Positions 292-12,921 of a stretch of 12,921 nt of DNA are shown piece by piece. How positions within the stretch are numbered: position 1 is the stretch's first letter; the number at the start of each line of letters is the position of its first letter. Source of the DNA: Azolla caroliniana (lineage: Eukaryota; Plantae; Polypodiophyta). A program made the position numbers and the translations under genes. The stretch spans positions 1-12,921 of the forward strand of contig JBHGNT010001015.1 in assembly GCA_043228905.1 (NCBI GenBank), in the 5' to 3' direction. The notes beneath the pieces are model-generated. The model saw only the letters and a program-made list of their open reading frames with translations, had not been told where the DNA came from and did no database searches.

Positions 292-1064
292 TTGTATAAT
301 ACTTTGTATTTGTAACTAAAAACTTGTAACCCTAAACTTCTTTTGTCATATAAGATTTTTTTGTTTGAGTACCATTTCTTTACACTATTCGATTGGTGTC
401 TTGAACTTTAAGTGTCTATTATATGTTTGCAAAGGTTGACTCGTAAAGTATGTGGTTAAGTATAATTTTCATTGATAGAAGATGATGAACTATCCCTAGT
501 ATGACAAATGTTGGTTCTAATTGTTTCTTGATTAATATAATTGAATTTAGCTTTATTGTATGATCTATGTTGTCTTTAATCTTGGTTATTGAGTTTCTAA
601 TAAACACAATAATATTAAGTCAACGTTGTTTCTCACTTGATAATACATTCACGTTGTTCATGTATGATTGGGATATAATGTTCATAGTAGTTTTTGGGCA
701 TGTGTGGTATATCGTGAGATATTCATTTCTGAATTTTTTTCAAATTATACCCAAAAATCATATTTACAAATACGATATAACAATCTCTATAAGATTTAGA
801 GACAAATATAGCAACAAAATTGAATTACTAAATTTGTTGTCTTGGATTCGAATTTAACATTGTGTACAATAAAGCATATTACAATTATATCCCCGTAATC
901 TTATCTAAGATTTGGATGAATTTGTATATGAATTGAGAAAATATTGGTTCAATTTGAAATCTTGATAGTATTAATTGTATTTTTGAGTGATATTTTTAAA
1001 AACCGTGTGTGCAATCGTGATAGATTCTTGAAAGTTTGTTCAAAAATGGTAATTCTTAACATCT

Positions 1065-1298
1065 CATGTATTTATCAATAAAGGAATGTGACATATTACC
1101 TGTTTCAAATGACCCAGTGTTTCAATTGCTTTAAAGAATCTTGAACTTCTTAAGGGATCCAATGATCACAAGTCAATGTATGATGACATGATCAAGCGTG
1201 TGGATTTGGATGGTGATGGCCAAGTAAATTTCCCAGAGTTTCAAAAGATGACGGATCTTAGACCGATCGATTTTAGTCCAAGGAGTGAAAGTAGGTGA
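1065..1298 (+). pseudogene. Calmodulin-like (CML) EF-hand gene fragment, C-terminal lobe
   Basis: Frame reads ...ALKNLELLKGSNDHKSMYDDMIKRVDLDGDGQVNFPEFQKMT..., with a canonical 12-residue EF-hand loop DLDGDGQVNFPE at 1203-1238 and a stop at 1296-1298. The upstream partner EF-hand is degenerate with in-frame stops (HVFINKGM*HIT...K*). Absent from the ORF track. Confidence 0.65.
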
Positions 1299-2539
1299 CG
1301 CAATTGATTTTGACGGATCAACTGAAGATCACGATTCTTAGACCCATTTATTTTCATCTTAAGCAATCAAAAGTAGGTGATTTGTGCATGGCTTGATAAA
1401 TTGTAAGGGAAGTGGGTCATGTAGGATAGGGGTTGCCACAAGGTATTGATGCATATTTGTGCATAATAGCTCATTCATTCCCCAGAGGAAAGTCAATTAA
1501 TTACATACATGCATACCCATGTTAAAATACATTTGTACAAACAAGTAATTAGATTATTCCTTGCCATAGGCCTCTAGGTTAATCCAAGTAACTAGATTGT
1601 GATATTTTGGATCAACTTTGCTTAGTTCCATGATGAGGCAAATAGATTTTTTGATGAAATTTACTCATGTGTTCTATTCTATTATGGGGCAAAATGTTTG
1701 TGTATGTATGACATCTCTTTTAACATACATACCAATCATAAATTATTCAAATCCATTGTTGGCTCATAAAATGTATTGGTAAAGTCATAATTCGTGATTG
1801 GTTGTCTCAACGATGAATATGCATGCCTCATGTTGATTAACTAATTATAAGCCCAAACATCTTCATGCCCTTGATGATAAGTTCTTTGCAATATTGAGTC
1901 AATCTAGTTCATGCATTTATTTTTTTGGGCCTGTAGACATCAATCTAAGTTCCACCTATAGATAGATTTCTCAAACTACTCACTTCATGACTAATGCACG
2001 AGAAATAGAAATGGCTCATTATAACTACTGTAATTGTATAGAGTGCATGGAACTTTCCTTGCACAACATTCATGCAAGATAAAACTTGGTTGAATGGAAC
2101 TAATCCGGGGGGAAGTTCATGCAATAGAAGGTATGTTGACGGAACCAACATGCATGAAAGATTATTAAAACTTGATTGAATGGAACCAATTTCATGGGGA
2201 ACTTTTTGCAATAGAAAAAGGCGCATGTCAGTGAAAGGTGCCTAAAAATTTGGAAGTGCAAACTAGAAAGCTCTATATGTTTCTATATATTTAGAAGGGT
2301 ATCTAACCTCGTGAAGCCCTAACCTAACACAATTGATCTACATGATTTGCACCAAATTGGACGTGCAAGCAAAGTGTAAAAGCTATGATCTTGCAATCCA
2401 TGTTTTGTAGCTTCCTTGTTACGAATCCGAGGTTAATCATCCTATTCCAATGAATTCTCATGTCAAGAGCTGTGTTGCAATCTAACGTTGTGGCATCAAT
2501 AATAATTGCTCGCTTCTAGAAATGTTTGGACTCCAGTTA

Positions 2540-2560
2540 CTCTCTCTCTCTCTCTCTCTC
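2540..2560. repeat. (CT)10 microsatellite
   Basis: Direct reading. Confidence 0.95.
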
Positions 2561-2654
2561 GTGATGTTCTATTCATTGCAGATACACATACAATTAATGG
2601 CAATTAATCGACAATATGGACTGAATAACAACCCCCAACACACACAGTATGACT

Positions 2655-2667
2655 AGGCTACCGAAAA
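2655..2667 (+). repeat. Left TSD of the LINE insertion (AGGCTACCGAAAA)
   Basis: 12/13 match to AGGCTACCCAAAA at 10753-10765, just after the LINE poly(A). Lies where the minus-strand ORF2-like frame ends. Confidence 0.75.
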
Positions 2668-2952
2668 AAAATTTCATTTTAGCCTCTTGTTTGCTAAAAA
2701 ATAAGCTTTCATAGGCTCTTGTTCAACTAGTGACTCTAGGAATATAGCACTCCAGTGTAAGCTTTCGAAGCGTAAAGAGTTCCCTGATTCTGAATTCCTC
2801 CCTCTCCATTTTATGTGATGCAATACTTCCTTCCAATGCTATAGAAGCTTTGAGCTAAACGGACATCCTTTGATGTGCCCGTCAAGCTTTCCAAACACTA
2901 CATCCCAATGGTTAGTATCCCATGAGCCAAATGACTCGGTTTTCCAATGATC
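2668..2952 (-). pseudogene. LINE ORF2 post-RT segment, continuing left of the copia insertion
   Basis: Reads DHWKTESFGSWDTNHWDVVFGKLDGHIKGCPFSSKLL*HWKEVLHHIKWRGRNSESGNSLRFESLHWSAIFLESLVEQEPMKAYFLANKRLK. Joins the 5767+ segment once the copia and one TGATC copy are removed. Confidence 0.7.
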
Positions 2953-3550
2953 TGTTAGGATTTTGGTCCCTCCGGATGGGATATGAGTACTCGGCAAGGA
3001 AGACCCGGTGAGAACCAGATGATGAGTACCCGGCAAGGAAGACCTGGTGAGAACCGGATGATGCAAGCCTGGTGAGAACCTCTCACTAGATGAAGGGACA
3101 TATAGGTAAATATGTTTCTGAGAGCCCATTGGGGCTATATTTGTAAATAGTCCTAATGTCATATTAATATAAATATGACCTAGGGCAAACACATATGGTG
3201 TGTTGTCATTATTTGTTGTATAGAGTTATTGAGTGTAACTATTGTACAGAGTGAGAGAGAGATACAGAGCGAGTCTCTGTTGTAACCGCCGCCAGGCAAA
3301 GATTGTGAGCAAGAGGTTGTTGCCTCTGTGTTCACCTGTTGTATTCCTCTCGACATAGTGATAGTTGGAGTTTGTGGACTCCCGTGGTTTTTCCCATTTA
3401 GGGTTTTCCACGTAAACATATTGTGTACCGTCTCTCATATTGTCTGTGTGTACGTGTAGTCACCTCGATTCCCATTCTCGGTGTTCGATTCGAAACGACA
3501 CGGTCTAAGACTCGGTTGTGGCTGAGTAATATTCCACATATTTTGTGTCA
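2953..3550 (+). repeat. 5' LTR of copia element (598 bp)
   Basis: TGTTAGGATT...TTTGTGTCA. My manual alignment to the 3' LTR gives about 28 substitutions in ~520 non-array positions (~95% identity). Confidence 0.96.
2983..3060 (+). repeat. 39-bp U3 tandem repeat, 2 copies
   Basis: Unit consensus ATGAGTACCCGGCAAGGAAGACCCGGTGAGAACCGGATG at 2983-3021 and 3022-3060. Confidence 0.95.
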
Positions 3551-3553
3551 ATT

Positions 3554-3565
3554 TGGTATCAAAGC
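3554..3565 (+). promoter_or_regulatory. Primer-binding site (initiator tRNA-Met type)
   Basis: TGGTATCAAAGC, one mismatch from the canonical TGGTATCAGAGC, 3 nt after the 5' LTR. Confidence 0.9.
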
Positions 3566-3580
3566 GAAACGACACAGAAA

Positions 3581-3697
3581 ATAGAAGATTCGTTGGGAGG
3601 CATGTTCAAGCTCACCGGCTCCAACTGCTCAGTGTGGAAGTCGAAGATGAGGGACATGCTCGTGGTTAAAGATCTTTGGTTGCCGGTTCAGTTCAGG
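3581..3697 (+). pseudogene. gag: Copia gag N-terminal stub
   Basis: (I/M)EDSLGGMFKLTGSNCSVWKSKMRDMLVVKDLWLPVQF matches the copia Gag N-terminal pattern KLxGxNYxxWKxxMxxxL. Confidence 0.8.
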
Positions 3698-5060
3698 GGA
3701 CGTTGGAAATCCACCAAGGTATAAGGCTCGAATCGTGGTGAAGGGCTTCCAACAGAAGAAAGGAGTGGACTTCGAATGACTTTTATCCGGACGGTACTGA
3801 GCATAGCGGCAAGCATGGATCTCAAGGTAGAGCAGTTAGACGTGAAGACAGCATTCCTTCACGGTGACCTTCAAGAGGAGATCTACATGCAGCAACCGGA
3901 AGGATTTGTGAAGAAAGGGAAGGAGCACCTGGTTTGTCAATTGAAGAAAAGCCTATACGGACTAAAGCAGGTTCCCCGGCAATGGTACCAGAAGTTCGAC
4001 TCCTTCATGACGGATCAAGGATACCACAAGACGCAGGCCGATCGCGTGTTTGTGAAGAAGTATGAAGGTGGAGACTTCTTGATACTCCTCCTATACGTGG
4101 ACGACATGTTGATCGTCGGACGAGACCAAGTCAGGATACGGATGTTGAAGAAGGCCCTTAACCGGACCTTCTCAATGAAAGACTTGGGTCCGGCAAGATA
4201 GATACTAGGGATGCACATCATCCGGAACTGGTCGAAGAAGCAATTGTGGTTGTCACAGGAAAAGTATGTGACAAAGGTGCTTCAACGGTTTAACATGTTA
4301 GAAGCAAAACCGGCCGGATCGACACTCCCGGAAAACTGCAGATTATCCGGTAAGCAAAGCCTGAAGACGAAGGCAGAGAAGGTAGATATGATGAAGATAC
4401 CATATGCCTCTGCCGTCGGGAGCTTAATGTACACAATGGTGTGTACCCGACCGGATACGATACGTAGTAGGAATGGTGAGCCCGTTCATGAGCAATCCCG
4501 GCAGAGAGCACTGGAACGCAGTGACGTGGATACTCCGGTACTTGAAAGGCACCTCAAGTATGTGCCTCTGATTCGACTCCGGTAAACCTCAACTTGATGG
4601 TTTCACAGATTCGGATATGTCGGCTGATGCGGACACCAGTCGGTCAACTTCCGGATATGTCATGACCTATGCAAGGGGAGCTGTTTCGTGCTAGTTGAGG
4701 CTGCAAAAGACGATTGCGTTGTCAACCACGTAGGCGGAGTACATGGCAGTCGTGGAAGCCGGCAAGGAAATATTATGGATGAAGGACTTCATCGGAGAGC
4801 AAGGGATCCGGCAAGAGGAATACCGGCTCTATTGCGCTAGTCAAAGTGCCATCCACCTTGCAAAGAACATGGCATACCATTCCAGAACGAAGCACATCTA
4901 GCGCATGTACCACTGGATCCGGGAGCGAGTAGAAGATCGAGAGTTTGTGTTGACGAAGATCCACATGGAAGAGAACGGGTCGGATATGCTAACCAAGGTA
5001 CTGACACCCAACAAGTTGGACATGCCGGAAGCGGATCGGGCTGACGAGGCATCCCATGCC
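3698..5060 (+). pseudogene. pol: Copia pol remnant: reverse transcriptase (RVT_2) and RNase H
   Basis: Motifs RYKARIVVKGFQQKKGVDF, QLDVKTAFLHG, LKKSLYGLKQ, LLLYVDDML, PYASAVGSLMY, GFTDSD, RSTSGYV, ALSTT*AEY, HSRTKHI, DMLTK. Several stops and frameshifts. Confidence 0.95.
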
Positions 5061-5075
5061 GAAGTGAAGGGGGAG
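5061..5075 (+). promoter_or_regulatory. Polypurine tract
   Basis: GAAGTGAAGGGGGAG, 2 nt before the 3' LTR. Confidence 0.9.
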
Positions 5076-5077
5076 TT

Positions 5078-5761
5078 TGTTAGGATTTCGGTCCTTCCGG
5101 ATGGGATATGAGTACCCAGCAAGGAAGACTCGGTGAGAACCGGATGATGAGTACCTAGCAAGGAAGACCCGGTGAGAACCGGATGATGAGTACCCGACAA
5201 GGAAGACCTGGTGAGAACCGGATGATGAGAACCCGGCAAGGAAGACCCAGTGACAACCGGATGATGCAGGCCCGGTGAGAAACTCTCACCGGATGAAGGG
5301 ACATATAGGTAAATATGTTTTTGAGAGCCCATTGGGGCTATATATGTAAATAGTCCTAATGTCATATTAGTATAAATATGACCTAGGGCAAACACATATG
5401 GTGTGTTGTCATTATTTGTTGTATAGAGTTATTGAGTGTAACTGTTGTACAGAGTGAAAGAGAGAGAGAGAGATACAGAGCGAGTCTCTGTTGTAACCGT
5501 CGCCAGGCAAAGATTGTGAGCAAGAGGTTGTTGCCTCTGTGTTCACATGTTGTATTCTTCTCGACATAGTGATAGTTGGAGTTTGTGGACTCCCGTGGTT
5601 TTTCCCATTTAGGTTTTTCCACGTAAACATACTGTGTACCCTCTCTCATATTGTTTGTGTGTACGTGTATTCACCTCCATTCCCATTCTGGGTGTTCGAT
5701 TCAAAACAACACGATCTGAGACTCGGTTGTGGCTGAGTAATATTCCGCATATTTCGCGTCA
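5078..5761 (+). repeat. 3' LTR of copia element (684 bp)
   Basis: TGTTAGGATT...TTCGCGTCA. It is 86 bp longer than the 5' LTR: two extra 39-bp units plus 8 bp in an AG microsatellite. Confidence 0.96.
5108..5263 (+). repeat. 39-bp U3 tandem repeat, 4 copies
   Basis: Units at 5108-5146, 5147-5185, 5186-5224 and 5225-5263. Confidence 0.95.
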
Positions 5762-5766
5762 TGATC

Positions 5767-7415
5767 AAACATATCAAATAGCATTCTTGCCCAAGGCAAT
5801 GTTTGTCAAAAAAAATTGGCAATAAAGTAGCTTTTCTGGCCAACATATGCAAATGCAATTTAAGAATATTTAGCCCTCCACTCAATCGTGGAGTGCATAT
5901 CTTCTCTAGGGATAGGAGTCATATACCTCTATGCGAGTACTTAGAGCACCAAACGTTGCTTATAATTTCTGAGTTAATCTTTTGTATCATGTGTTTCGGC
6001 CAATCAATCATAATTAAGTAATATTGCATGTAAGCCATGAATATAGATTGCACTATATGCAATCTGACATGGAGTGGCCATGTTGCAATCTTCTAATAGC
6101 TTAACTTTTGTCTCACTTTTTGCAGAACCCATTCAACCTTTCTTTTCCCTGTTGCATTCCATCCCAATGGATAGCCAAGATGTCTAACCATTTCATTTGG
6201 GCTAACAACTTGACCTGGCCACAAAAGCTGATGCCAACTATATGGTGTCAAGGGTAGACATTTGGACCTGTTGAAGTTAACATGCAATCTAGCAACTAAT
6301 CCATACAATTTGAGGGCATCCATAATCACCCTCATATCATTTGGATTGTTTTGTGACAGGAATGATGTATCATATGCATATGCCTGAGCCACGAAATCAT
6401 GTTCGCCTTTCATTTGCAAACCGCAAAGTTGACCAATTAATATTAGATGATCCATGTACAATATAGTAGATGAGTTGCCATTGCATACAACAATGCACTT
6501 ATAGGACAATCTTGTAGTACTGATTTGGCTAAGCTCCATGAATTTGTCAATTCACCCTCAATAATGCATGAAGATGTGCTAGACCTATAAAGCCAATAGA
6601 TTACTTGAGACATTTTCGGACCAAATCCTAGTTTGACCATTGTGGCTACCACAAAATCCCATTGGATGGTGTCAAAGGCCTTTTCAATGTCAATTTGCAT
6701 GAGCAATACATCTTGTTTGGTGAATTTGGCATCCTCCATTCCAATATAGGCATTAGAAATATTATCTATAATTTGCCTTCAGGAATGAACCCGTACTAGT
6801 TTATGTGGATGTCTCCCAACAAAGTGCCCTTAATACGATTAGCAATTACCTTTGCAATAATTTTATAGATCACTGGCATGAGAGTGATTGGTCGCCAATG
6901 CAAAAAAGATTCACACAATGTTTTCTTGGGTATTAATTTGATCAAACCTTCTTTCCATGAGATCGGCATATCCCATTGTTGCCAAGCATTATTTGCCATA
7001 GATAGGATTAAATCCTTAAGGACATCCCAAAATTTTGCAATGAACCCTAACGTAATACCATCCCAACCAAGCGCTTTGCCTTTCCTGAGGCCCTTCTGAG
7101 CCTCCAAAAGCTCCTCCATTGTGAATGTTGCATCCAAAGCAATAGCTTTATGAACAAAAATAGTGGCTTGAACTAGTGACAAGAATGTATCTCTGGCCTG
7201 TTTAACTACATCTGTAACAACTACATTGTTCTCAAAGATGTGAGAGAAGTGAGTTACACATTCTTTGGCTAGTTCAAGTCGGTTTGTAGTCCACAAACCC
7301 TCATTAGTTTTGATGAATTTAATGGATTCCTTTTGGCGTATTAAATGCAACCTTTTGAAGAAGGATTTAGAAGAGCATCCTGTGTCTTTCAATGGAACTG
7401 TCTTGACCTAACTTG
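5767..7415 (-). pseudogene. LINE ORF2 reverse transcriptase region (frameshifted)
   Basis: Motifs KGKALGWDG, LIPKK, WRPITLM, YKIIAK, DIEKAFD, LQDCPISALLY, AYAYDT (decayed YADD), VNFNRSK, RHLGYPLG and downstream ICTPRLSGGLNI. Spread over ORFs 6796-7392, 6443-6739, 6093-6539 and 5646-5885. Confidence 0.93.
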
Positions 7416-7637
7416 TGTCAGGAATAGTACTGAGACAGAGAAGAAATTAGTACTAAGAGGAATAGAGGGTGTCGAACACTCAAGAGAAGGAGAGAGAGAG
7501 GGAGGGAGGGAGAGAGAGATCGAGGGAGAGAAAATGATGATGACAACGATATATTATGTGAGAAGAATATACAAGGAAGGCTAGGGGGCTTAAGACTGGC
7601 GTTGAACCGATTTGGTTCGAAATAATGCCTTGTGCCT

Positions 7638-7647
7638 CCTTTTATAG
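7638..7647 (-). promoter_or_regulatory. TATA box of the solo LTR
   Basis: CTATAAAAGG on the minus strand, followed downstream by a CT-rich tract (AG-rich 7484-7530 on plus). Confidence 0.6.
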
Positions 7648-7666
7648 TGTTCTTAGGAGTAGTCCT

Positions 7667-7699
7667 GAAGCTTTTAGAATGTTCCAGAGAAATCTGGAA
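7667..7699. promoter_or_regulatory. Heat-shock-element-like array
   Basis: GAAgcTTTtaGAAtgTTCcaGAGaaATCtgGAA: seven alternating GAA/TTC units in exact 5-bp phase (4 perfect, 3 with one mismatch), 20-52 bp upstream of the minus-strand TATA box. Confidence 0.6.
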
Positions 7700-7757
7700 T
7701 ATATTGTCATTAATTTTCTATAGTAAAACTTAAATAAAAATAATATTCTACGTATTA

Positions 7758-7830
7758 CAATAGATAGTGTAATGGTCAAGAGCTCGACCCATGTAATATA
7801 AGGTCATGGGTTTGAGTCTTGCCATATCAT
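7758..7830 (+). other. Decayed tRNA-like module (Pol III A and B boxes) inside the solo LTR
   Basis: A-box-like TAGTGTAATGG at 7765-7775 and B-box-like GGTTTGAGTCT at 7809-7819, with starts 44 nt apart as in tRNA positions 8 and 52. Also AGAGC after the D-loop, AGGTC variable loop and a T-arm ATGGG-TTTGAGT-CTTGC. Acceptor and anticodon stems do not pair, so it is not a functional tRNA. Confidence 0.6.
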
Positions 7831-7839
7831 GACAACTTG

Positions 7840-9091
7840 CCATTTTTCCAATTTATTTTTGTCATGTAGCATCAATGTGTGTTTGGCCATACATAATGCA
7901 TCGTCTTTATGTAAAGTCAAAGATCTTCTATGTGCTAACTCCGTTAGGGCTTGACAAGTAAATTTGGCTTGTTGAGTGTAATATGTCTGTCTTGAGACAT
8001 ACCACTTCCCATACTCTTGTATTATTGTTTGTAATCTATGTACAAAATGTACCCACGCTATATCAACATCTATGTTGACTTCTACATAAAGAGGAGATAT
8101 TATGTCATAGACCATCATCTTGAAGACTTCATGCTTGAGGTTGTTGTTGTTAATGACCATAAGTCTCTTTCTTTGGAGATGCACTTCATAGTAATGATTC
8201 CCAAAATGAAGGTCTAGCCAGACAGGAGCATGATCTGACAACTGCAAAGCATGATCTATATGCATTGTACATGATCTATGTTGACTTCTACATAAAGAGG
8301 AGGTATTATGTCATAGACCATCATCTTGAAGACTTCATGCTTGAGGTTGTTGTTGTTAATGACCATAAGTCTCTTTCTTTGGAGATGCACTTCATAGTAA
8401 TGATTCCCAAAATGAAGGTCTAGCCAGACAGGAGCATGATCTGACAACTGCAAAGCATGATCTATATGCATTGTACAAGTGAAATTTTAATACCGACTAG
8501 CATGCAACAAATACCATCTATCAAGCCTTGCATAGTATGCAGAGTAGGTGGTGTGATTAAAGGTAAAACCAAGAACATGTGGGTGTGTCATTTGCCATAA
8601 ATCAACCCAATCCAATGAGTTTTGCATATTATACCATTGACCTTGTTCACTAGTGTTATCACCTGCATTTGGAGAGTTGTTGAAATCTCCACATATAAAT
8701 GCATTTTGTGACCATGGATAAGCACACATGTCTTGCCAAAGTAAAGCTCTGTGCCTTGAGGCATTCGGGGCATTCCAACAAAATCATACGTCTCACCATT
8801 TATCATGCATTGTACAACCATCCACCTCCCACTTTGATCATTATAGGCAACCATAGGATTTAGCTCATGTTTTATGATCATAAGCACTCCAGATGTTGTA
8901 CCTTGACCTGCATAGAAGATGTCAAAACCTCCAAATGAACCAACTTGACCATTGAATTCAACTTGTTTATGTTCTTGAACACAAATTACATCTGCTTGAG
9001 AAGAGGTAATATAGTTCTAAAATAGTTTCCATTTACTAGGGTTACAAAGACCCCGTATATTGAAGGAGACACATTTTACTTGTTTATGCAT
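7840..9091 (-). pseudogene. LINE ORF2 N-terminus: APE-type endonuclease and linker
   Basis: ATG at 9091. Motifs SFNIRGL, DVICVQEHK, SGVLMII, SGRWMVV, ICGDFN, DLWQ, FTF, ARLDRWY, LSDHAPV. Stops and frameshifts present. Confidence 0.92.
8068..8477. repeat. 204-bp tandem duplication (8068-8271 and 8274-8477)
   Basis: Copies differ at one position (GAGGAGATAT vs GAGGAGGTAT) and are separated by a 2-nt spacer TG. Explains the twin ORFs starting MHIDHALQLSDHAPVW. Confidence 0.95.
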
Positions 9092-9299
9092 GATTAATAT
9101 GGTTGAAGATATCAAACAAAGCAAAATACTAATCTGATTGCATATTAGTATCACCACCATGCTTATTTGCATAAATACTAATATCTGAATTTGATCCATC
9201 TTTGTAAATGTCCACATATGAACCTCTGCTCACCCTTTCCAAGCTTTTGAGATTGAAGAGAGCATTGAAGCATTAACCTGTAAAAATGAACCTTGATTC

Positions 9300-9845
9300 T
9301 CAAGTGCGTGAGTGTAGTTCCTGAATCCTCACCACCACAGGTGTTTTGCTTCTAATGGATTTCTTAGATATTTGCCATCCTTCAGTGTTCTCTTTGTCCA
9401 CATCAAAGGCCTGTCTCAAATCGTGCATGTTTGATTGCACATTACCAATTGTCTGCGGGACTTCACTTTTCCCTTTGTCTTGTACTCTCAATTTCTGGAT
9501 GGGTTGCATCATAGATTGGTTTGTTGCCTTTGAAGAAGAAACCTGACTATTTTCTTTTAGTGATGCAGGTTTCAACATTGCGGTTTCAAGTGGTTGAATA
9601 GTCAATGTTGGGCATTTTGATTGCATATGACCAAACTTGTTACATGTGTAACATGCACTTGCAAATTTGGCCCATTCCAACTTAAAAGGTCTTGCACCAA
9701 TAGTTGGATCATCCGAGTTGAGGGTGATAACTTCCAAGATCGGAACATCTATGTCCCAAAGAATGCAAAATCTATTAGAAGTACTTGTAGTTTTTGGGGA
9801 GCATACTACTCTCCCCATTCCCCCTGCAATTGTAGGTAATCAATT
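9300..9845 (-). pseudogene. LINE ORF1 C-terminal half with CCHC zinc knuckle (5'-truncated at the inversion junction)
   Basis: CYTCNKFGHMQSKC (CX2CX4HX4C) at 9653-9612, preceded by LPTIAGGMGRVV and followed by a low-complexity tail with an EGWQ motif. Lies directly upstream of ORF2. Confidence 0.85.
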
Positions 9846-10644
9846 CAGATGTGGTAAATGACCAATGTCACTTATTGCACTTCAATGACATGACATGTCG
9901 TTATAGTCTTGGGCCACATCATCGTGTTAACTGGAATCAAGTCACTGAGTTGGTACTTTCCTTAGTACCTGTGCCACCTCTTGATGGAGATCGCAGGATT
10001 CAGGATTGGATGTTACAAAAAGGGAAAATTGTTATTCCAATGCATAACATTACAACACATTCAATGTATATGTTCTTGCAACCTGTCCCATGGTTTCACG
10101 AACATGCAAATGCATTATGGAACCTACACACAACGCAGTCCTGGTGGAAAAACAGGCTTACAAGCTTATGGAGCTTTGTCTTCCACTTAAGCAATGGGTA
10201 TTCCTATGGAGATGCCTATTGGGTATGCTCCCGACTGGATCGAATCTTCAAAAGAGATTGATTGCCTCATCGCATTGTGCAAGATGTGGTGGACGATTGG
10301 AAATGGCCCCACACTTATTATAGGCTTGCTCATTCACTACAACATTTGTACAAAGACTAAGTGCATCTCTTTATCACAGATTTCCTGGCCGAAGGTTTGG
10401 CAAACAGTTTTGGATATTTGGACAAATTCCGTGCGCCCTATCCAACAATGCCTATTTTCTTCAATGGACATGATTTTGGGCACTCTGGACCATTTGGACA
10501 ACCCGCAATAATAAGGTCTTTGATGGAAACCAACTGCATGAAGTTCGCTTTTCTAAGCAATCCCTCAGGCAATCTCTATTTGATTGTCTGCAACTTAGAA
10601 ACATCACACTGCAAATTTACAATCTTTACTTTGAGTGCTTTTAA
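9846..10644 (+). pseudogene. LINE ORF2 C-terminus (zf-RVT/CCHC region), non-inverted segment
   Basis: KQWVFLWRCLLGMLPTGSNLQKR, CARCGGRLEMAPHLL*AC (CX2CX8HX4C, 10276-10329) and WALWTIWTTRNNKVF. Stop TAA at 10642-10644. Confidence 0.88.
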
Positions 10645-10751
10645 GCTCTTTAGTGTCTAATGGACACTTGTATATTTTTCTTTATTCTTTGTGGGTTTCA
10701 CCTCACTTTGAGTTTTCCCACTAGTGATAAAAGTGTTACAAAAAAAAAAAA
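10645..10751 (+). other. LINE 3' UTR and poly(A) tail
   Basis: T-rich UTR ending GATAAAAGTGTTAC followed by A12 (10740-10751). Confidence 0.8.
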
Positions 10752-10752
10752 C

Positions 10753-10765
10753 AGGCTACCCAAAA
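10753..10765 (+). repeat. Right TSD of the LINE insertion (AGGCTACCCAAAA)
   Basis: One base after the poly(A), with a 12/13 match to 2655-2667. Confidence 0.75.
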
Positions 10766-11229: not shown

Positions 11230-11641
11230 TGTATGAGTAGTATTTTTCTAGTATTTGTTGATGTGAGTTGGATATGAAGTTGTGCATAGGATCACGGAAG
11301 TTGATGTAGAAGTAGCTGTTTACCTAATTTTGTTCATATCCATACATATATATAAATGGTCTTTAATCATATATATGGGTGTGAAGATGCATGCTGCATC
11401 ATGTTATCATATTATTGTATGACAGTAAAATAGCCATCTCCTGTGACATCAGGCTGCCTATTATCATGTATAGGATTTGTGTCTTTGACTGTACATATGG
11501 CCATTATGGCACAATGTTGATGTGAAGATATATTTTATGGCATCATGTTATGTTATGTCTCATGTGAGATTACTACAATCCTTTCTCCTTAGAATGTAAT
11601 ATCATGTGTGGTGATTTGTCTGAGCAATCACTGAAAATAGA

Positions 11642-11906
11642 ATGATGACTACAGTGCTCAGGGGAAGTTCTATACTCACATCACCAGCTGTATCCACTAA
11701 GTGGGAAGATGCTGAAAAATGGTTATATGGCCACCACAATTATAACTCCGAGGGTCCTAATGCCAAAAAGCCTCAAGTTTCTATTAAAAGCCAAATACGA
11801 TCATCTTATACTCCAAACAATAATTGCAAATCGGTTTGCTTAACATTATATCCCTATTCAAGCCCTTGTGGTTCAACATTGGTTCATAAGGAATCAAACA
11901 CTGTGG
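11642..11906 (+). CDS. REM: Remorin (group 6-like), coding exon A
   Basis: STKWEDAEKWL matches the PSKWEDAE(K/R)W motif of long-N-terminus remorins. Phase-1 donor GG|GTAATA at 11906/11907 is compatible with the next exon. Whether ATG 11642 is the true start is uncertain. Confidence 0.78.
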
Positions 11907-12382
11907 GTAATAATCATGGATTGCTCACTCATTGAAAAGGATCAAAGCTATTGGTAGTTATTAGTAGTACATGTATGTTTGTTAGTGATACAATGGATAT
12001 GGATATGTCAGCATAAGAACTACATGCTTGTACTAGTTAGCATACGATGTCTATGGATGGTTCGTCATAATAAGTAGATGTATTTGTTACCTTAAGAAGT
12101 ATATTTATGTATTACCATAAGAAATACATGCATGTGTTACCATAAGAAGTATATGTATGAGTTGGTCATAAGAAGTATATGTATGATAAAAGTATATGTA
12201 TGAGTTAGTCCTAGAAGTATATGCTGTGCCTAGTCATAAGAAGCATGTGGATATTTTAGTCAGAAGAAGTATATGGATGCATTAGTGACTAGACTTAAGA
12301 AGAAGTATTATGTATGTGTAACTGTATTGCAATGTCAAATGAGAAAAAAGTTTCTCTTTGATCATTTTGTATGTTTTTGCAG
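11907..12382 (+). other. Spliceosomal intron (GT...AG, 476 bp)
   Basis: GTAATA donor and TTTTTGCAG acceptor ending at 12382. Splicing keeps the frame (junction codon G+TT = Val). Confidence 0.7.
11955..12320. repeat. Degenerate ~25-26-bp minisatellite within the remorin intron
   Basis: Recurrent CATAAGAAGTATATGTATG(A/T)GTT(A/G)GT-like units, clearest at 12090-12280. Confidence 0.75.
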
Positions 12383-12914
12383 TTGATTCAGACGTAGGTG
12401 TCGTGGAGCAAAAGAAACTTTTTGTTGATGGGCTAGCAGAAGGACGGTCAGTTTTGACAAAAGATGCATATACTGAGGTCTCACCTTCAACATCAAAAAG
12501 AGACATGGGTACTCAAATGACCCCATTCTCAAGTTCTTGTTCTTCTCCTGTTAGAAATAGCTCACCCCCACGACATAATACACCGGTCAAGAAGAGGCGG
12601 AATAGTGATGTGATGAAAAAGGATAATATTAGTAGCAATGACAATTCAGTTCTTGATAGTAACGATTACATCAATCATGTGGAGATTTTGGAGGGGTGCC
12701 GCATGTCTAATTTGGCTCTTATGGACCTCCCTTGTGGAAGCAACGTGTCCTTCCAATCCTGTGATGAGCAAGTATGTGCACATAGTCCAATGAATGTAGT
12801 GACCGAGGAGAATTGTCATGCAGTGGAAGGTAAAAACATTTCGGGGTCCTTTACCCTTTTGGAGACCCATACGGCGGCATGGGAGGAAGCCGAACGAGCG
12901 AAATGTATTGCTAA
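12383..12914 (+). CDS. REM: Remorin (group 6-like), coding exon B; gene continues beyond the window
   Basis: Uninterrupted frame with RDMGTQMTP, SPPRHNTP and LETHTAAWEEAERAKCIAK (start of the Remorin_C coiled coil). Probable phase-2 donor AA|GTGGGT at 12914/12915. Not in the ORF track, probably because it has no stop in the window. Confidence 0.9.
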
Positions 12915-12921
12915 GTGGGTT

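What the first reader, a model, noticed from the sequence alone, without database searches (positions are those of the whole stretch)
2655..10765. One plant L1 insertion with a ~3.7-kb 5' inversion (twin-priming architecture)
Seen: what look like two back-to-back LINEs are complementary, non-overlapping parts of one element. The minus-strand part ends at ~2668 with ...FLANKRLK, and the plus-strand part begins at ~9848 with DVVNDQCHLLHFNDM..., a plausible next stretch of ORF2. It then runs to the CCHC finger and poly(A). A 13-bp TSD (12/13 match) flanks the whole 8.1 kb. Known: twin priming in mammalian L1 gives this geometry, with the internal priming point at the left flank and the 5'-most sequence at the junction. 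Inference: the same mechanism acted on a plant L1, where I know of little documentation. After removing nested DNA the inverted arm is ~3.7 kb and reaches into ORF1, against a ~0.9-kb direct arm.
Basis: partly seen in the sequence, partly recalled or inferred. Interest (0 to 1): 0.75.

Follow-up and report, generated by a model that had tools for sequence, protein, structure and literature searches.

The report
Front-flipped LINE copies in a plant
A dead L1-type jumping gene in a land-plant genome has 3.7 kb of its front part pointing backwards between two copies of one 13-base target, and about one in twenty sampled copies of its family has the same layout, likely because both cut DNA ends primed copying of one RNA ("twin priming"), a route documented mainly for mammalian L1.

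Summary
Confirmed and extended. The two back-to-back LINE pieces are complementary parts of one 5.4-kb L1-type family. Nested DNA removed and the front arm turned round, the element aligns as one 4,648-nt block to a full-length copy (91%). The arms are adjacent in 28 of 28 other loci. A 13-bp TSD (12/13) and a 12-A tail bound the unit. A second assembled copy of the locus and one short-read contig carry the junction. New: 9 of 184 resolved family copies are 5'-inverted head-to-head. Eight have 12-18-bp TSDs, and their arms meet within -8 to +19 nt. Junction microhomology exceeds chance (P about 0.006-0.012); priming-site microhomology does not (P 0.10). Twin priming is the best explanation. 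The empty site was not found and L1-clade membership was not tested by a tree. Nine literature searches showed no plant report, but three key papers were not held. This scan has noted the same layout before in RTE, CR1, Vingi and dinoflagellate LINEs of other genomes. Known mechanism, new host group.

The parts
2655..2667 (+). Left target-site duplication (13 bp)
   Evidence: 12/13 match to 10753-10765; same in the C1 copy
2668..2672 (+). A-run extension (3-5 extra A) between the TSD and the LINE tip; the likely internal priming point lies here
   Evidence: Window has 8 A then T, the C1 copy 9 A; the family antisense strand reads AATTGATTTC here. Origin of the extra A not determined
2673..2952 (-). 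Inverted arm, tip: ORF2 just after RT (family ref 4216-4496)
   Evidence: 91.8% to L034; adjacent to the direct arm in 28 of 28 loci
2953..5761 (+). Nested, internally deleted Copia-type LTR element; LTRs 2953-3550 and 5078-5761; 5-bp TSD TGATC
   Evidence: RVT_2 E 3.6e-41; LTRs differ at 30 of 597 aligned bases
5767..7415 (-). Inverted arm: RT region of ORF2 (ref about 2563-4221), frameshifted
   Evidence: RVT_1; 92.8% to L034
7416..7834 (.). Nested 419-bp solo-LTR-like insert, TG...CA, 5-bp TSD ACTTG
   Evidence: an 81% copy lies in L040
7840..9839 (-). Inverted arm: EN-RT linker, APE endonuclease and C-terminal half of ORF1 with zinc knuckle (ref 768-2568); holds a 206-bp tandem duplication at 8068-8477
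   Evidence: Exo_endo_phos, zf-CCHC
9838..9845 (.). Head-to-head inversion junction; 2-nt (AA) microhomology, 3 nt if the source carried the T allele seen in L034; AATCAATT is also represented, with 1-2 mismatches, at the inverted tip
   Evidence: contig X2 record 11 (9772-9875, 0 differences)
9838..10739 (+). Direct 3' arm: end of ORF2 with zf-RVT, and 3' UTR (ref 4491 to about 5395)
   Evidence: 92% to L034; zf-RVT E 7.9e-7
10740..10751 (+). Poly(A) tail, 12 A
   Evidence: sequence; family 3' ends
10753..10765 (+). Right target-site duplication
   Evidence: contigs of runs X1 and X3 bridge tail, TSD and flank with 0 differences

Best explanation
This is a single 5'-truncated, 5'-inverted copy of a 5.4-kb L1-type LINE family, likely made by twin priming at the moment of insertion. 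Shown: one family, two complementary arms joined head to head, one TSD, a poly(A) tail, and the same layout in 9 of 184 copies. Inferred steps: (1) the endonuclease nicks one strand and the poly(A) tail primes first-strand cDNA, which runs about 0.9 kb; (2) the other strand is cut 13 nt away, and its A-ended overhang anneals to the same RNA near family position 4496 and primes a second cDNA, which runs 3.7 kb into ORF1; (3) the two cDNA ends are joined through a 2-3-nt microhomology. Later a Copia element, a solo LTR and a tandem duplication landed inside the dead copy.
For: One colinear block of 4,648 nt to L034 at 91.4%, and likewise to 5 other long copies. Arms adjacent in 28 of 28 other loci, two pairs of which are duplicates. 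Census: 190 distinct copies with a 3' end, 184 resolved, 9 inverted (4.9%, 95% CI 2.3-9.1%). TSDs enclose 8 of the 9: window 13 bp (1 mismatch), L099 14-15 (1), L163 15-16 (2), L202 16, L203 12, L223 13-14, L232 15, L290 14-18, the last five exact. In those eight the inverted arm abuts the left TSD (window: after 3-5 A) and no flank DNA sits at the junction. Arms meet within -8 to +19 nt on a 5.4-kb element. Junction microhomology has mean 1.88 vs null 0.72 (P 0.0056; all ten copies 1.6, P 0.012). Family TSDs are mostly 12-17 bp (57 of 138 non-inverted copies pass the score vs 1 of 138 shuffled pairs). This is the range in which PMC4245944 (passages) found L1 inversions. The junction is present in the C1 copy and in a contig of run X2.
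Against: Microhomology at the priming site is weak: mean 1.25, P 0.10, with 2 of 8 at zero. In primates 95% of inverted L1 have it (PMC2912911, passages). Microhomology lengths were read by eye from alignments. At the window's left junction the A-run makes the priming point ambiguous and leaves 3-5 A unexplained. No empty site was seen, so the TSD is not checked against the pre-insertion sequence. L125 has no convincing TSD and extra bases at its junction; L290 has no junction microhomology. The rate (about 5%) is far below the 31% of recent primate L1 (PMC2912911). The sample is not random, and inverted arms under 28 nt would be missed. L213 shows a different, tail-to-tail rearrangement, so other routes to inversion exist in this family.
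Confidence: 0.88

Rival explanations
1. An ordinary 5'-truncated insertion whose front 3.7 kb was inverted later by double-strand-break repair.
For: The copies are old (about 8% apart) and often rearranged by deletions, duplications and nested inserts. Short microhomology also fits end joining. L213 is a non-twin-priming inversion.
Against: One break would have to fall within a few bases of the 5' TSD border in all 8 TSD-bounded copies. Only one inversion of another kind (L213) was noted, against 9-10 head-to-head ones.
Confidence: 0.06
2. The inversion arose during insertion but not by a second priming on RNA: the first-strand cDNA or RNA-DNA hybrid broke, and the upstream piece was ligated in reverse by host end joining.
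For: It gives the same end structure. Priming-site microhomology is not significantly above chance (P 0.10), and junction microhomology fits end joining.
Against: It needs a long first strand to be made, cut and flipped. All 9 direct arms are 915 nt or shorter, and none of 55 copies with arms of 1,200 nt or more is inverted (Fisher P 0.06). That suits a first strand stopped early by a second primer.
Confidence: 0.04
3. Two independent insertions of the same family, head to head, or one nested in the other.
For: Separate neighbouring copies exist elsewhere (L236).
Against: The minus piece has no 3' end or poly(A) and stops within 8 nt of where the plus piece begins. One TSD encloses both. The two arms show similar divergence from relatives.
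Confidence: 0.01
4. Assembly artefact.
For: The window is a whole small contig duplicated on C1, and the 3 kb around the junction is identical in both.
Against: A 104-nt contig of run X2 spans the junction with no difference. The left junction lies in a region where the two copies differ by about 1%. Eight other loci show the layout.
Confidence: 0.01

Closest known systems
5'-inverted (twin-primed) human and chimpanzee L1 (model of Ostertag and Kazazian 2001, not held; as described in PMC2912911, parts 1-2 of 5 and passages read, and PMC4245944, passages read)
   Same: TSD, inverted 5' segment, direct 3' segment, poly(A), TSD; 5'-most sequence at the junction; long TSDs (10-20 bp); junction microhomology
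   Different: Land-plant host; about 5% of sampled copies vs 30.9% of 2,068 recent primate insertions; priming-site microhomology weak here; no strong TT/AAAA target seen by eye in the TSD list; copies are old and dead
Isolated non-mammalian cases: one Nimb-2_DR 5' inversion in chicken DT40 cells (PMC4245944, passages); an endogenous 5'-truncated/inverted Zorro3 with 1.4 kb inverted in Candida albicans (PMC1965478, passages)
   Same: A LINE outside mammals with an inverted 5' part
   Different: Single events. The Zorro3 passages give no junction analysis and do not name the mechanism. Here there is a family-wide series with TSDs
Plant L1-clade LINEs (ORF1 DUF4283 plus zinc knuckle; ORF2 APE-RT-zf-RVT; architecture recalled, domains)
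   Same: Domain order, poly(A) tail, variable 12-17-bp TSDs, frequent 5' truncation
   Different: 5' inversion was not found described for them in the searched library; no RNase H domain was detected in this family

Membership tests
Twin-primed 5'-inverted LINE insertion | Inverted 5' segment and direct 3' segment of one element, joined head to head, complementary with a small gap or overlap | tested here: met
   overlap 6-8 nt
Twin-primed 5'-inverted LINE insertion | One TSD of about 10-20 bp around the whole unit, with the inverted segment abutting it | tested here: met
   13 bp, 12/13; 3-5 extra A intervene; 8 of 9 inverted family copies have TSDs
Twin-primed 5'-inverted LINE insertion | Poly(A) at the 3' end of the direct arm | tested here: met
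   12 A at 10740-10751
Twin-primed 5'-inverted LINE insertion | Microhomology at the inversion junction | tested here: met
   2-3 nt in the window; family mean 1.6-1.9 vs null 0.72, P 0.006-0.012
Twin-primed 5'-inverted LINE insertion | Complementarity of the TSD 3' end to the internal RNA site | tested here: inconclusive
   AA in the window, blurred by the A-run; family mean 1.25, P 0.10
Twin-primed 5'-inverted LINE insertion | Empty site with a single target copy | tested here: inconclusive
   Both assembled copies are filled and no paralogous empty site was found; no empty-site contig was listed (table cut)
L1-clade LINE | Two ORFs: ORF1 with DUF4283 and CCHC; ORF2 with APE endonuclease, RT and C-terminal zf-RVT | tested here: met
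   Full-length copy L040 (DUF4283 and zf-CCHC are below their curated cut-offs); window
L1-clade LINE | Poly(A) tail and variable-length TSDs without a fixed target | tested here: met
L1-clade LINE | RT phylogeny places it in L1 rather than Tx1 or other APE clades | tested here: inconclusive
   Best PDB match is human L1 ORF2p (E 1e-32) over R2 (E 5e-15), but no other clade appeared among the PDB hits; no tree with named references was built

The most novel reading that the evidence does not exclude
Twin priming is not a mammalian peculiarity but a routine (about 5%) outcome of L1-type retrotransposition in land plants, possible wherever the staggered cut leaves a 12-18-nt overhang. Plant genomes would then hold many unrecognised 5'-inverted LINEs, now annotated as pairs of separate fragments.
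Probability: 0.65. Interest if true: 0.6.

Novelty: new member of a known kind. Interest (0 to 1): 0.5.

Why it matters
In cell assays 5' inversions came almost only from human L1 in human cells, and were put down to both element and host factors, with a long overhang as a proposed requirement (PMC4245944). A plant family with 12-17-bp TSDs and a measurable inversion rate supports the overhang idea. It also suggests the ability is old or general for this enzyme class. It gives a countable, testable trait (inversion rate against TSD length) across plant LINE families, and a caution for repeat annotation. The mechanism itself is known, and the window's copy is dead.

Tried and rejected
Empty site: both flanks are single-copy apart from the C1 twin, and one search listed no contig joining the flanks (tables cut). 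Junction in other runs: at 98% likeness only X2 of 4 runs had a contig across 9838-9845. X1, X3 and X6 showed no cover at 9828-9843; a hole proves nothing, and X2 may be the sample behind the assembly. All runs were contigs, with no long or raw reads. That 9840 might be the family's natural 5' end was rejected: copies run about 750 nt further. L203 first looked like a 741-nt gap without TSD; the next stretch showed a nested insert, a 19-nt gap and a 12-bp TSD. Mixed-strand loci L147, L170 and L236 were dropped as separate neighbouring copies. L213 (tail-to-tail) and L210 (head-to-head, 3' end lost) fall outside the 184. Literature: searches (uninformative) gave no plant 5'-inversion report in their listings. 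PMC6007223, PMC5389967 and PMC11371274 hold the term only in their reference lists. PMC4838847 and bioRxiv 2022.11.04.512097 have no occurrence of 'inversion'. Ostertag and Kazazian 2001, Ichiyanagi 2007 and Kojima and Okada 2009 were not held; they may bear on the host range. No supplements were read.

Full report
Observation. The window is a whole small contig of a 523-Mb genome. The closest named relative of the element's ORF2 is a fern protein at 52% identity, and a remorin gene lies next door, so the host is a land plant. AGGCTACCGAAAA (2655-2667) and AGGCTACCCAAAA (10753-10765) flank 8.1 kb. On the minus strand lie, from right to left, half of an ORF1 with a zinc knuckle, an APE endonuclease and RT fragments. 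On the plus strand lie a zf-RVT finger, a 3' UTR and 12 A. Three later events interrupt the minus part: a deleted Copia element (2953-5761, 5-bp TSD, LTRs 5% apart), a 419-bp solo-LTR-like insert (7416-7834, 5-bp TSD) and a 206-bp tandem duplication.

One element, not two. A search with the plus arm gave 411 candidates, of which 40 were scored and 30 fetched. In 28 of 28 non-self loci the reverse complement of the window's left tip lies directly upstream of the plus arm; two pairs of these loci are duplicates. Five full-length copies of about 5.39 kb define the family. On L034 the inverted arm covers positions 768-4496 and the direct arm 4491-5405. With nested DNA removed and the front arm turned round, the element aligns as a single block of 4,648 nt at 91.4% to L034, and at 89-91% to five others. 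The two arms show similar divergence from the same relatives. About 750 nt of the 5' end are missing.

Junctions. The direct arm begins at 9838 with AATCAATT, followed by a 1-nt deletion relative to the family. The inverted arm ends at 9839, or at 9840 if the source carried the T allele of L034, which gives 2-3 nt of microhomology. At the left end the TSD's four A run on into 3-5 further A before the LINE tip, so the priming point is fixed only to within a few bases. The arms overlap by 6-8 nt.

Is it real DNA? A second copy of the locus on C1, about 99% identical and with its own extra 6.3-kb LTR insert, has both junctions and both TSD copies. The 3 kb around the inversion junction is identical in the two, so this is weak support for that junction. 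A 104-nt contig of run X2 covers 9772-9875 with no difference. Contigs from runs X1 and X3, of two studies, bridge tail, TSD and flank with no difference. No empty site was found.

Family census. I pooled loci from two DNA searches and three exact-pattern searches. The patterns had 137 matches (100 listed, all 100 covered), 100 (98 covered) and 86 (three on small contigs not fetched) (and the fetches). After merging duplicates there were 190 copies with a 3' end, 184 with a resolved 5' side, and 9 of these are inverted head to head: 4.9%, CI 2.3-9.1%. A tenth, L210, has the layout but has lost its 3' end. Inverted arms range from 33 nt to 3.7 kb; L202 has 3.3 kb inverted against 0.14 kb direct. 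All nine direct arms are 915 nt or shorter, and 0 of 55 copies with arms of 1,200 nt or more are inverted (P 0.06). Eight of nine have TSDs of 12-18 bp, five of them exact; L125 has none that convinces. Arm offsets in the eight are -6 to -8, -2, -2, +6, +19, +11, +2 and +1 nt. Junction microhomology, read by eye and counted conservatively, averages 1.88 nt against a null of 0.72 (P 0.0056), or 1.6 over all ten (P 0.012). Priming-site microhomology averages 1.25 (P 0.10). The sample is not random, and arms under 28 nt would be missed.

Mechanism. The layout is that of twin priming as described in PMC2912911 (parts 1-2 of 5 and passages): one target end primes on the poly(A), the other primes internally, and the two cDNAs are joined at a short complementarity. 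Shown here are the structure, its recurrence, the TSDs and the junction microhomology. Inferred are the order of cuts, the second priming and the joining. Later inversion of an ordinary copy would need a break at the TSD border eight times out of eight. Two independent insertions cannot explain arms that meet within a few bases and share one TSD. Flipping of a broken cDNA by host repair during insertion is not excluded, because priming-site complementarity is weaker than the 95% reported for primates.

Comparison. The family has the domain order of plant L1 elements (architecture recalled), and its best solved-structure match is human L1 ORF2p. No tree separates L1 from Tx1, so I call it L1-type. 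In primates 30.9% of 2,068 recent L1 insertions are inverted (PMC2912911). In cell assays inversions came only from L1 in human cells, apart from one Nimb-2_DR insert, with TSDs of 10-20 bp (PMC4245944). A truncated/inverted Zorro3 is mentioned for Candida (PMC1965478). Nine searches listed no plant report. Three papers likely to state the host range were not held, so absence from print is not established. This scan's own notes record the same layout in RTE, CR1, Vingi and dinoflagellate LINEs of other genomes (unchecked); a query naming plant, fern and moss returned none.

Verdict. The feature is real and correctly interpreted, and it recurs in about 5% of the family. It is a known mechanism in a host group where I found no report of it: new member of a known kind, interest 0.5.

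Noticed in passing
window 11624-12921 and L031 4584-4793 (-): A remorin gene (Remorin_C E 2.6e-8) appears to start about 0.9 kb downstream of the LINE's 3' end, so the 8-kb insertion sits in its upstream region; expression effect unknown.
   Followed up: partly
C1 copy (L032-L033), at window 2829-2833: A 6,289-bp LTR element with 1,453-bp LTRs 99.9% identical and a 5-bp TSD is present in the C1 copy but absent from the window: a very young, polymorphic insertion inside the inverted arm.
   Followed up: partly
L163 5701 and L203 5700: Two independent inverted copies start their direct arm at the same family position (ref 4552), inside a 12-bp palindrome; four of nine breakpoints fall in ref 4491-4609. 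Possible pause site for reverse transcription.
   Followed up: no
L213 5563-6220: Sense piece, then a 46-nt antisense piece from the 3' UTR, about 24 unassigned bases, then the last bases of the element and poly(A): a rearrangement that is not classic twin priming.
   Followed up: no
L017 2635-3863: A 246-bp stretch of the LINE is tandemly repeated at least five times in one copy; L189 shows a similar array of about 211 bp.
   Followed up: no
window 1113-1298: Isolated EF-hand (calmodulin-like) fragment, E 7.9e-7.
   Followed up: no
window 11990-12310: Degenerate 25-26-bp tandem repeats, apparently in a remorin intron.
   Followed up: no
window 2983-3063 and 5108-5270: The Copia LTRs differ in the number of 39-bp internal repeats (about 2 vs 4).
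   Followed up: no
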